Assembly: GCA_024137785.1 (NCBI GenBank)
Contig: JAHRHZ010000081.1
Location: 15,323,245-15,387,244, forward strand
Source of the DNA: Ginglymostoma cirratum
Lineage: Eukaryota
DNA: 64,000 nucleotides
Direction: 5' to 3'
Below the pieces are notes generated by a model. That model was given only the letters and a program-made list of their open reading frames with translations. It was not told the DNA's origin and made no database searches. Shown here piece after piece: positions 17,301 through 18,344 of this stretch (the stretch's first letter is position 1; each line of letters opens with the position of its first letter). The position numbers were made by a program, and so were the translations under genes.

Positions 17301-18344
17301 AATTCCATAGGCTCACCACACTCTGGAACATCCTTCCTGCAACTAGGCTTGTTAGAATTTATTGGTTTCTACGAGATCCACCTGCATTCTTCTTCTAAGT
17401 TGACATGACCAACATCAATGGTAATGAATGGGTAAGTGAGTGGGGCAGAGCAGACAGGCAGGTGAGGTACCTGGATGAGTGGGTAGGCTAGATGAGACAG
17501 TAGGTGGATAGGGTGACCAGTGGGTGGGGTGATAGGTGGATAGAGTGGCAGTTAGGTGAGAGGGCAGGCAGTTGAGGTGGCAACTGGGTGAGTTGGTAGG
17601 TGGAGATGGCCACGGATAGATGAGGTGGTGAATCGGGTGGCCAAGGGGCCAGCGGGATGTGGTCGGGGTCATCAAGGACATAGCAGGACAGATAGCAATC
17701 ATGTACCAGAGGAGTGGCCAGGGATTAGGGGTATTTAGAGATCTGGAGGGTAGTCCACAAGTCTGGTGGGGTTGGGTGCCCATGTAAGTGTTTGGGGTGT
17801 CACTTCTGTAAGAGATATGATAGAACCCAAGAATTAGATTTTTTTTGTTTCCTAACATTTCCTGAGTAATTAACCAGGTCAGTATGTCAGAGCTGTCCAA
17901 AATCTGAGCTGTAATTCCGAATCAAGAGCTACTGCAGAAGACAGACTGACCCATTGGAAGTTGAAACTTCCTGGACCAAATCCTGATGTACATCCTGGAG
18001 CCTGGGAGATTTGAGCCTGTGTGTAATGACCAAGCGGGTAGAGGTGTAAGTTGTGGGGGACAATGTGACCTGGTAGTTACCTCTCGCTCTCTTGCTTTTC
18101 CAGGTGGCACACTGCAATCGCCCTGTTAGCTTCAAAGAAGGTGGATGTCAAACCTCTCATCACTCATCGTTTTGGACTGGAGCAGGCCCAGGAAGGATTT
18201 GAATGCGTGAAGAAGGGAGCTGGAATCAAAGTGGTCCTCAATTGTGAACAGCAGCAGTGCCCATCGCTGTGCCCACAGAACCAATGCGGCCAACAACAAT
18301 CACAATGCCAAACAAGACAGTGTCCCCAGCACAGCTTCTTCTGA
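5178..18344 (+). CDS. SORD: Sorbitol dehydrogenase-like gene, 3' part (join 5178-5356, 9275-9396, 18104-18344); 5' exons lie upstream of the window
   Basis: Three GT-AG exons in compatible phases translate to D..RLEKAK.LGA...ECTG, GG.VVLVGMG...[11 protein letters not shown] and [23 protein letters not shown], the medium-chain dehydrogenase/SORD C-terminal half. The neighbourhood (next to DUOX/DUOXA) matches known SORD synteny. Confidence 0.93.
6725..7130 (+). mobile_element. Penelope-like 3' end with tandem terminal-repeat fragments
   Basis: The block ctctccatggatgctgc-tgacc-gctgtgatctccagcattt occurs twice (~6746, ~7075). Homologous to the minus-strand element at 62945-63530. Confidence 0.6.
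8548..8678. mobile_element. Short Penelope-derived terminal fragment
   Basis: gataacaaggtgtggagctggatgaacacagcaggcc...gacgtttcgggcctagacccttc, then the inverted tail; imperfect flanking repeat tttcaaa(c/t)ttt. Confidence 0.7.
9275..9396 (+). CDS. SORD: SORD-like exon (equivalent to human exon 8)
   Basis: ttcacag|GCT GTC AAA...AAC AC|gtaagc, 122 bp; [41 protein letters not shown]. Confidence 0.95.
9618..9826. mobile_element. Fold-back Penelope-derived element with 14-bp target-site duplication
   Basis: Inverted arms of about 80 bp centred near 9700; AAAGAATAATTAAG at 9604-9617 and 9827-9840. Confidence 0.8.
10735..11525 (+). mobile_element. CR1 LINE 3' fragments (two pieces)
   Basis: [12 protein letters not shown] coding remnant at 10740; 3' UTR motifs; ORF 11329 [24 protein letters not shown] is the CR1 ORF2 terminus. 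Confidence 0.75.
12607..12751. mobile_element. Short fold-back Penelope-derived element
   Basis: gataacaagcatggggctggatgaa ... ttcatccagccccatgcttgttatc inverted arms; flanked by tagcctcttgcc / tagccacttgcc. Confidence 0.75.
13167..16860 (+). mobile_element. Decayed Gmr1/Gypsy-like LTR retrotransposon (5' LTR ~13167-13906, gag/SCAN-like remnant)
   Basis: LTR-like ends TGTCATGA...GTTGTAAC followed by PBS-like TGGTGGC. Coiled-coil ORF 14019..14342, then remnants [28 protein letters not shown]...RVYMEEQ and ADDY, typical of SCAN-bearing gag. Confidence 0.65.
14555..14740 (-). mobile_element. tRNA-derived SINE nested in the LTR element
   Basis: Reverse complement starts GGTTAGCTCAGTTGGCTGGACAGCTGG with a B-box-like GGTTCAGTTCC; related copy at ~51160-51312. 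Confidence 0.65.
17095..17395 (-). mobile_element. CR1 LINE 3' fragment
   Basis: ataggagcaggagtaggccatttggcccttcaagcctgctccaccattcaat is the reverse complement of the CR1 3' UTR seen elsewhere in the window. Confidence 0.75.
18104..18344 (+). CDS. SORD: SORD-like terminal exon with Cys/Gln-rich extension
   Basis: ttttccag|G TGG CAC...; [79 protein letters not shown]. Confidence 0.95.

What the first reader, a model, noticed from the sequence alone, without database searches (positions are those of the whole stretch)
18246..18344. SORD carries a 32-aa Cys/Gln-rich C-terminal tail
Seen: after the conserved end of the enzyme (IKVVLNC) the frame continues [32 protein letters not shown], with 12 Gln and 5 Cys in QC/CP-like units. 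Established: human SORD ends about 7 residues after that Cys. Gln/Cys/Pro tracts typify cross-linked structural proteins (SPRR/LCE cornified-envelope proteins as transglutaminase and disulfide substrates; Cys-rich sperm-tail proteins). Inference: a metabolic enzyme fitted with a cross-linkable or metal-binding anchor. It may be tethered to the sperm flagellum, analogous to the extension of sperm GAPDHS, or co-opted as a structural protein.
Basis: partly seen in the sequence, partly recalled or inferred. Interest (0 to 1): 0.8.

Follow-up and report, generated by a model that had tools for sequence, protein, structure and literature searches.

The report
Cysteine-loaded shark sorbitol dehydrogenase copy
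Sharks and rays keep an extra copy of the sugar-alcohol enzyme sorbitol dehydrogenase with about twice the usual cysteine and a conserved cysteine/glutamine tail, which probably lets it be chemically cross-linked into a cell structure that has not yet been identified.

Summary
The tail is real: 32 residues, 12 Gln, 5 Cys, in the last exon, with AATAAA 70 nt after the stop. It is present in 8 of 9 hits (six named shark and ray species plus a spliced-length contig) and is as conserved as the enzyme core. This is not the ordinary SORD. Cartilaginous fishes carry at least four SORD paralogue groups. This one (type A), beside DUOXA and a peroxidase gene, also has 19-24 core Cys against 9-13 in bony vertebrates and 9-12 in the untailed shark groups C and D. 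Orthologues keep the zinc and NAD residues but have an altered substrate pocket. A sister paralogue (type B) carries a different, helix-patterned Cys/Gln tail. Best reading: an active, re-specified polyol dehydrogenase co-opted as a disulfide-cross-linkable protein, much like reptilian cysteine-rich uricase (CRUOX). Tissue, activity and cross-linking are untested; sperm tethering is plausible but unsupported. Ten literature searches found no description.

The parts
5178..5356 (+). Internal coding exon of the type A SORD-like gene (179 nt; NAD-binding domain, with gained Cys in CQD, AKC, KCTC, SLC, DICLEC). Human exon 7 equivalent (numbering recalled).
   Evidence: tblastn with P0003 94%; AG/GT boundaries and frame
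9275..9396 (+). Internal coding exon (122 nt; end of NAD-binding domain, F297/R298/Y299 region)
   Evidence: tblastn 100% to P0003; boundaries
18104..18344 (+). Last coding exon: C-terminal part of the catalytic domain, tail and TGA stop
   Evidence: PDB 1PL6 E=8.6e-14
18246..18257 (+). Glu plus poly-Gln linker (GAA CAG CAG CAG); length-variable, 3-9 Gln across species
18258..18341 (+). Conserved 28-aa Cys/Gln/Pro motif; Cys spacing 3,4,6,4; no secondary structure predicted; ends PQHSFF
   Evidence: 22-28 of 28 identical in 8 records; AlphaFold pLDDT 46-57 in the orthologue
18333..18341 (+). Invariant C-terminal Ser-Phe-Phe; fits a class I PDZ-ligand pattern (pattern recalled)
   Evidence: 5 of 5 full-length type A against 0 of 89 other SORD-family proteins; SFF in all 8 tailed records
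18415..18420 (+). AATAAA, likely polyadenylation signal 70 nt after the stop
31140..40348 (-). Neighbour: DUOXA (dual oxidase maturation factor); five ORFs with DuoxA matches
   Evidence: Pfam PF10204, E 9e-27 to 7e-4
53450..60020 (+). Neighbour: haem-peroxidase-domain exons, head-to-head with DUOXA, inferred to be DUOX
   Evidence: Pfam PF03098 in three ORFs, E 1e-19 to 3e-7; the name DUOX is an inference from its position

Best explanation
The gene is an elasmobranch paralogue (type A) of sorbitol dehydrogenase, from a tandem expansion at the SORD-DUOX locus. Shown: (1) it keeps the SORD fold and the zinc and NAD ligands; (2) its substrate pocket is changed; (3) its core Cys has doubled; (4) it has an unstructured Cys/Gln tail under constraint. 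Inferred: it is still a zinc/NAD+ polyol dehydrogenase, probably with another preferred substrate. It is made in a terminally differentiating cell, where oxidation links its surface and tail Cys by intermolecular disulfides (perhaps also Gln-Lys transglutaminase bonds). The oligomer, with several tails, then becomes part of an insoluble scaffold while it can still supply NADH or sugars locally. Tissue is unknown. My judgement, given cross-linking: sperm tail about 0.4, an epithelium or its appendage 0.3, lens 0.2, other 0.1.
For: Tail motif 22-23 of 28 identical between this shark and rays, the same level as the core (37 of 47). Core Cys (P0003 residues 30-346): type A 19-24 (n=5) and type B 13-17 (n=7), against 9-12 in untailed shark groups C and D (n=10) and 9-13 in 69 bony vertebrates. 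This is therefore not a genome-wide bias. The window's own 147 core residues hold 10 Cys against a mean of 4.3 in bony vertebrates. Thirteen gained Cys replace mostly Gly, Ser, Asn, Glu or Thr, none a conserved Arg, and 8 of 13 lie in loops of a confident model. C44, H69, E70, E155, H49, the GxGxxG motif, D203 and R208 are kept in 5 of 5 orthologues. The model matches sheep and human SORD at 1.0-1.1 A rmsd. Precedent: chicken CRUOX is Cys-enriched, catalytically active, has an added C-terminal peptide of about 20 aa and aggregates through disulfides (PMC10517255). The Cys-rich A+B+chimaera grouping persists in the C-terminal-half tree after Cys columns are dropped (89/95).
Against: There is no expression, activity or cross-linking data at all. 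Surface exposure is inferred from residue type and secondary structure, not from coordinates. Five of the 13 gained Cys sit in helices or strands, and two replace invariant Ser158 and Ala191, which may be buried. Enrichment is about 2-fold against 5-fold in CRUOX. Untailed group E (P0098 and the chimaera protein P0047) also has 14-16 core Cys. The shark tail has no Lys, unlike the EDC terminal motif. One of 9 hits, a draft Scyliorhinus torazame model (P0009), lacks the tail. Type A was not listed for several other sequenced elasmobranchs, and clusters could not be opened to check. The catalytic residues were read from orthologues, since those exons lie upstream of the window.
Confidence: 0.5

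Rival explanations
1. The tail is a targeting device, not a cross-linker. S-acylation of its Cys and/or binding of the invariant Ser-Phe-Phe end to a PDZ scaffold or trafficking adaptor fixes a soluble enzyme to a membrane.
For: SFF ends all 8 tailed records. An S/T-x-hydrophobic end occurs in 5 of 5 type A against 0 of 89 others. In the type B tails the four Cys and the Leu fall mostly within one 100-degree face of a helix, which suits a lipidated amphipathic helix.
Against: It does not explain the doubling of Cys across the folded core. Type B lacks the SFF end (0 of 7). The type A tail has no basic patch and no amphipathic pattern (moment 0.29). The PDZ pattern is short and recalled.
Confidence: 0.2
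2. It is an abundant soluble thiol buffer or enzyme-crystallin (lens, cornea or red cell), with the Cys acting as a redox sink or raising refractive index.
For: Doubled Cys with an intact fold. MDR-family enzymes have been recruited as crystallins, and SORD is a lens enzyme (recalled).
Against: There is no Met, Arg or aromatic enrichment: core means Met 7.2 against 9.2, Arg 10.2 against 15.2, aromatic 19.0 against 20.3 in bony vertebrates. A conserved low-complexity tail is not needed for this role. 'Sorbitol' does not occur in the main text of the catshark atlas paper, which discusses eye crystallins; its supplement could not be read.
Confidence: 0.14
3. The tail, with new core motifs (C198-x-x-C201, C222-x-C224, C243-x-x-C246 in P0003), binds Zn or Cu as a metal store, or forms a redox or metal switch beside the NAD site.
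For: Five invariant tail Cys plus an invariant His. New CxxC and CxC motifs flank the NAD-binding Asp.
Against: Tail spacing 3,4,6,4 has no CC, CxC or CxxC, and varies in rays (3,3,6,4, or an extra CPxLC unit). The four-Cys structural-zinc loop of MDR enzymes is not restored; type A has lost even C105. No confident fold is predicted for the tail.
Confidence: 0.11
4. The tail is a neutral by-product of stop loss and CAG/CAA slippage, or an annotation artefact.
For: The poly-Gln linker varies from 3 to 9. The S. torazame model lacks the tail.
Against: The motif is as conserved as the core from sharks to rays, with the Cys and the PQHSFF end invariant. AATAAA follows the stop. A 916-nt contig encodes exons that span 13 kb here.
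Confidence: 0.03

Closest known systems
Vertebrate sorbitol dehydrogenase SORD (MDR superfamily; PDB 1PL6, 3QE3)
   Same: Fold (rmsd 1.0-1.1 A); about 55% identity; catalytic zinc ligands and NAD-binding residues; position next to DUOXA/DUOX (human gene order recalled).
   Different: One of at least four chondrichthyan paralogue groups. It is more divergent from bony-vertebrate SORD (57.5% mean) than groups C (69.1%) and E (71.4%). Pocket changes: Y50F, F118M/Q/T, A120G, T121F/L, and in part S46T, F59W/M, R298K. Twice the core Cys; 32-aa tail.
CRUOX, cysteine-rich urate oxidase of reptiles and birds (Mori et al. 2023, PMC10517255)
   Same: Metabolic oligomeric enzyme with lineage-specific Cys enrichment along the chain, a retained but modified active site, and an added C-terminal peptide.
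   Different: Unrelated fold. CRUOX is the single orthologue, this is a duplicate. Enrichment about 5-fold there and 2-fold here. CRUOX makes its own H2O2, and skin expression and disulfide aggregation were shown for it; nothing is shown here. That paper's screen covered single-copy genes of sauropsids, mammals and ray-finned fishes only, so it could not have seen these genes.
EDC cornification proteins (SPRR, LCE and other SEDC proteins; PMC4245816)
   Same: Cys/Gln/Pro-rich low-complexity composition with potential disulfide and transglutaminase sites.
   Different: No homology; different locus and multi-exon gene; no Lys in the shark tail; appended to a folded enzyme. That paper found no SEDC genes in the fishes it screened.
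Sperm GAPDHS and other fibrous-sheath-tethered enzymes (recalled; no call beyond a reference title)
   Same: A duplicated metabolic enzyme with an added low-complexity extension.
   Different: The GAPDHS extension is N-terminal and Pro-rich (recalled); this one is C-terminal and Cys/Gln-rich, and testis expression is unknown.
Re-specified SORD relatives: grape L-idonate dehydrogenase (PMC4404067) and fungal L-arabitol dehydrogenase (PMC2731777)
   Same: Changes at the same pocket sites. Plant Y42H, A112G and T113S correspond to human positions 50, 120 and 121 (offset of 8, inferred from the listed active-site residues). LadA M70 and Y318 correspond to F59 and F297; the white shark protein P0005 has M59 and Y297.
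   Different: The substituted residues are mostly different (Y50F, T121F/L), so a shift in specificity is suggested but the substrate cannot be named.

Membership tests
SORD-type zinc/NAD polyol dehydrogenases (MDR) | GroES-like plus Rossmann MDR fold | tested here: met
   Pfam ADH_N and ADH_zinc_N in orthologues; AlphaFold pLDDT 93.9; Foldseek 3QE3 and 1PL6
SORD-type zinc/NAD polyol dehydrogenases (MDR) | Catalytic zinc ligands C44, H69, E70 and E155 | tested here: met
   5 of 5 full-length orthologues. These exons are upstream of the window; P0003 matches the window in 145 of 147 shared core residues
SORD-type zinc/NAD polyol dehydrogenases (MDR) | NAD-binding GxGxxG, D203, R208 | tested here: met
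   5 of 5 orthologues
SORD-type zinc/NAD polyol dehydrogenases (MDR) | Sorbitol-type pocket (Y50, F59, F118, A120, T121, F297, R298) | tested here: not met
   Y50F, A120G, and changed 118 and 121 in 5 of 5; F59 changed in 3 of 5; R298K in 2 of 5; F297Y in 1 of 5
SORD-type zinc/NAD polyol dehydrogenases (MDR) | Measured sorbitol oxidation | not testable with these tools
   needs an enzyme assay
One-to-one SORD orthologue | Single copy at the DUOXA/DUOX-linked locus | tested here: not met
   Locus fits, but several paralogues occur per species, with equal longest-contig lengths in 7 taxa and four supported clades A-D
CRUOX-like Cys-enriched co-opted enzyme (works-like, not homology) | Lineage-specific Cys increase along the enzyme core | tested here: met
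   19-24 against 9-13; rows are related, so the rank-test p-values are not independent evidence
CRUOX-like Cys-enriched co-opted enzyme (works-like, not homology) | Gained Cys are solvent-exposed | tested here: inconclusive
   8 of 13 in loops, mostly replacing polar or small residues; no coordinates were available for accessibility
CRUOX-like Cys-enriched co-opted enzyme (works-like, not homology) | Disulfide aggregation and shift of expression to a cornifying tissue | not testable with these tools
   no expression data reachable
EDC proteins (SPRR/LCE/SEDC) | Sequence homology or terminal motif with Lys | tested here: not met
   Tail alone: only ALN at E 0.53; no EDC family match for full proteins; no Lys in the window's tail; ESM Atlas hits under 0.9 and unnamed
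EDC proteins (SPRR/LCE/SEDC) | Location in the S100A-flanked EDC, two-exon gene | tested here: not met
   Multi-exon gene beside DUOXA; EDC definition
EDC proteins (SPRR/LCE/SEDC) | Cys/Gln/Pro-rich composition | tested here: met
   12 Gln, 5 Cys and 3 Pro in 32 aa
Sperm-tethered enzyme (GAPDHS-like) | Testis-restricted expression and presence in the sperm tail | tested here: inconclusive
   The catshark sperm proteome names no sorbitol dehydrogenase, but its full list has accessions only. It contains an unidentified ADH-N-domain fragment, A0A401QCT0, which was not among the hits
Enzyme-crystallin | High lens abundance; Met/Arg/aromatic enrichment of high-index crystallins (recalled criterion) | tested here: inconclusive
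   Composition not enriched; lens abundance not testable
Metallothionein-like metal-binding peptide | CC, CxC or CxxC clusters | tested here: not met
   Tail Cys spacing 3,4,6,4
Class I PDZ ligand | C-terminal S/T-x-hydrophobic (pattern recalled) | tested here: met
   5 of 5 against 0 of 89; binding itself not tested

The most novel reading that the evidence does not exclude
Cartilaginous fishes evolved, independently of the amniote EDC and of CRUOX, a covalently cross-linked cell structure built from metabolic enzymes. One SORD lineage became Cys-rich before chimaeras and elasmobranchs split, then duplicated into two proteins with different cross-linking tails (coil-type A, helix-type B). The family forms a two-by-two set: canonical pocket untailed (C) and tailed (B), altered pocket untailed (D) and tailed (A). 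Type A may be a recombinant of a D-like catalytic half and a B-like anchoring half. Each of two enzyme activities would then exist in a soluble and a scaffold-bound form, and the tails would mark an undescribed disulfide-hardened structure in sharks and rays.
Probability: 0.2. Interest if true: 0.8.

Novelty: new variant of a known kind. Interest (0 to 1): 0.62.

Why it matters
SORD appears as one conserved, untailed type across the 69 bony-vertebrate proteins examined. A chondrichthyan expansion with doubled cysteine, two different Cys/Gln tails and re-tooled pockets is unexpected, and my searches found no description of it. [quoted passage not shown] The genes give ready probes for asking whether sharks and rays build disulfide- or transglutaminase-hardened intracellular structures (sperm tail, epithelium, lens). 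The altered pocket points to an unknown polyol reaction in elasmobranch metabolism. Existing tissue RNA-seq could settle the first question quickly.

Tried and rejected
Structure: AlphaFold on the shallow 10-row alignment failed (pLDDT 27.9) and was not used; the 130-row alignment worked.

Mutational explanation: CpG decay as the source of the core Cys was rejected, because no gained site is a conserved Arg in bony vertebrates. Restoration of the structural zinc site was rejected. The first residue table (end) was off by one and was redone; the first exon boundaries were off by one and were corrected.

Chimera test: the N-half tree joins A with D (87/99) and the C-half tree joins A with B (96/88). 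AU tests reject A+B in the N half (p 0.009) and A+D in the C half (p 0.001), but not A+B+chimaera in the N half (p 0.16). With pocket and Cys-gain columns dropped, A+D dissolves. Convergence or short conversion tracts therefore explain the data as well as a true chimera. The full-length tree is the quick version, left part of the tail columns in, and shows A, B and the chimaera protein as an open fork.

Wider search: of 150 representatives listed, 139 were examined (10 near-vertebrate hits were left out, and 1 was P0009). None had 6 or more Gln in the last 40 residues; 3 had 3 Cys. Median Cys was 3.1%, maximum 6.4%. The ESM Atlas gave nothing for the tail and SORD for the full protein. Rfam found 0 matches in the window. 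No tandem repeat was called over the tail. No second SORD-like gene was found in the window with 19 queries. Pfam was run on 226 of the 343 ORFs of 58 aa or more (those past 18400).

Literature: searches found no paper on these genes; one search listed only 30 of 63 hits. The shark skin proteome (PMC10707392) and two catshark reproductive proteomes name no sorbitol dehydrogenase in the text I could search. This is weak, since UniProt gives such models other names. The supplements of PMC11979771 and PMC13052469 could not be read and may hold the decisive expression data. Cluster members could not be listed, so the full species range stays open. No complex prediction was run, as a SORD dimer would pass by likeness to solved structures.

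Full report
Observation. The + strand at 18246-18341 encodes [32 protein letters not shown], followed by TGA and in frame with the end of a sorbitol dehydrogenase. It holds 12 Gln and 5 Cys. The equivalent Cys of human SORD is residue 349 of 356. The window holds only the last three coding exons (5178-5356, 9275-9396, 18104-18344), which splice into one open frame; no convincing match to the preceding short exon was found. AATAAA follows at 18415. Apart from the antisense of the same DNA (10), no other six-frame ORF among 812 exceeds 9 Cys+Gln in 32 residues, against 18 here.

Conservation. A search with the last exon returned 9 proteins from 27 candidates. Eight carry the tail: whale shark, brown-banded bamboo shark (two models), basking shark, white shark, Hypanus sabinus, Mobula birostris, and an unnamed 916-nt contig (P0007). 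That contig encodes exons spread over 13 kb in the window, so it is most simply a spliced transcript. The ninth, a draft Scyliorhinus torazame model, diverges before the tail. The 28-residue motif is 28 of 28 identical in the two carpet sharks, 26 of 28 in the two lamniforms and 22-23 of 28 in the rays and P0007, matching the last-exon core (37-46 of 47). Only the Gln linker changes length. The window is 145 of 147 identical to the bamboo shark protein over the shared core, so it comes from a carpet-shark-like genome.

It is a paralogue. The full-length search (437 hits, best 120 listed) showed several 'sorbitol dehydrogenase-like' proteins per cartilaginous fish. Equal longest-contig lengths within 7 taxa suggest one chromosome. 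Sequences and a tree sort them into type A (this tail), type B (7 proteins with a different tail, QCQQQCQQLLQQCQQQC), untailed clades C and D, and two ungrouped untailed proteins that I pooled as E. A second chimaera protein (P0091) joins A and B (support 99; 97/93 in the C-terminal-half tree). The 69 named bony-vertebrate proteins are untailed. Downstream lie DUOXA (-, 31.1-40.3 kb) and peroxidase-domain exons (+, 53.5-60.0 kb), the neighbours of human SORD (recalled). This is ancestral synteny and no evidence of a shared function.

The core is cysteine-enriched too. Over the same alignment span, type A has 19-24 Cys, type B 13-17, the chimaera protein 15, groups C and D 9-12, the two E proteins 14-16, and bony vertebrates 9-13. 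The window's own 147 core residues have 10, against 4.3 on average in bony vertebrates. Thirteen gained positions replace mostly Gly, Ser, Asn, Glu or Thr; 8 fall in loops of an AlphaFold model of the orthologue P0003 (mean pLDDT 93.9). Met, Arg and aromatics are not enriched; Lys is somewhat higher (25.6 against 16.6 in bony vertebrates and about 21 in C and D). The tail has pLDDT 46-57 and no secondary structure. Among 139 distant representatives examined, none had a comparable Gln-rich end.

The enzyme machinery is kept and the pocket is changed. C44, H49, H69, E70, E155, the GxGxxG motif, D203 and R208 are intact in 5 of 5 full-length orthologues, and the model overlays SORD crystal structures at 1.0-1.1 A. 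Y50F, A120G and changes at F118 and T121 occur in all five, with S46T in four, F59W/M in three and R298K in the two rays. Positions 50, 120 and 121 correspond to those that differ between grape L-idonate dehydrogenase and plant SORDs (PMC4404067, passages). Positions 59 and 297 separate fungal L-arabitol dehydrogenase from SORD (PMC2731777, passages). The untailed group D shares most of these changes, while type B has a largely canonical pocket. Split trees put A with D in the N-terminal half and with B in the C-terminal half, and AU tests partly back this. The A+D link disappears without the pocket columns, so recombination is possible but convergence is not excluded.

Mechanism. Shown: the tail is real, constrained and predicted unstructured; the core Cys has doubled; the catalytic residues are retained; the pocket is altered. 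Inferred: an active polyol dehydrogenase of shifted specificity whose surface and tails let the oligomer be polymerised or tethered by disulfides, perhaps also by transglutaminase, in a terminally differentiating cell (0.5). The closest precedent is CRUOX (PMC10517255; I read the abstract, sections 5, 6 and 9, and part 1 of 2 of the Discussion). It is Cys-enriched, active, C-terminally extended, skin-expressed and aggregates via disulfides, and its authors' screen did not include cartilaginous fishes or multi-copy genes. Rivals: targeting by lipidation or by the invariant SFF end (0.2), a soluble thiol buffer or crystallin (0.14), metal binding (0.11), a neutral tail (0.03). The resemblance to SPRR/LCE is compositional only (PMC4245816, passages).

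Tissue is unresolved. For the catshark semen proteome (PMC11083954) I saw passages, part 1 of 6 of the supplement and term searches. It names no sorbitol dehydrogenase, but its full tables list accessions only; one sperm protein, A0A401QCT0, is an unidentified ADH-N-domain fragment. The shark skin proteome (PMC10707392; passages and a supplement search) gave no match. For PMC13052469 and PMC11979771 I saw main-text passages only; their supplements could not be read and may bear directly on expression. Ten searches of the open-access library found no account of these genes; subscription journals are not covered.

Verdict. It is best filed as a new variant of the cysteine-enriched co-opted enzyme, within an apparently undescribed chondrichthyan SORD expansion. 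Interest 0.62; it would be about 0.8 if expression data tie the tailed paralogues to a cross-linked structure.

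Noticed in passing
P0010, P0011, P0013, P0014, P0015, P0018, P0048 (type B paralogues, not in the window): A second SORD paralogue of sharks, skates and rays has a different tail with Cx3C-x6-Cx3C. Its Cys and Leu fall mostly on one helix face (20-120 degrees), like a Cys-lined coiled coil or lipidated helix.
   Followed up: partly
P0017, P0021, P0041, P0072 (group D) and type A: Untailed group D shares the altered substrate pocket with type A, which suggests an unknown polyol substrate in elasmobranchs. 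Inositols or bile alcohols are recalled candidates, not tested.
   Followed up: partly
P0091 (Callorhinchus milii): A second chimaera SORD groups with A and B, has 15 core Cys and ends in a different Cys-containing extension that may be a gene-model artefact.
   Followed up: partly
window 5178-5356 (P0003 residues 198-246): Gained Cys form CxxC around the NAD-binding Asp (C198-D-M-C201), CxC (222-224, at a one-residue insertion) and CxxC (243-246): a possible redox or metal switch near the coenzyme site.
   Followed up: no
window 31140-40348 (-) and 53450-60020 (+): A head-to-head DUOXA and peroxidase (inferred DUOX) pair follows the gene. No second, inverted DUOX/DUOXA pair was seen between them and the SORD-like gene. 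The last DUOXA exon's ORF runs about 107 residues past the Pfam domain.
   Followed up: partly
window 57871-58699 (+) and 47039-47482 (+): LINE-type remnants: RVT_1 match at 57871-58119. The ORFs at 58064-58702 and 47039-47485 resemble each other and look like LINE tails (label by recall).
   Followed up: no
window 52814-52892: Two 39-nt tandem copies, 95% alike, that look like the head of a tRNA-derived SINE (label by recall).
   Followed up: no
PMC11083954 Table 2, A0A401QCT0 / scyTo_0023980: [quoted passage not shown]
   Followed up: partly
window 17420-17700: Purine-rich degenerate 16-nt repeats in the last intron.
   Followed up: no
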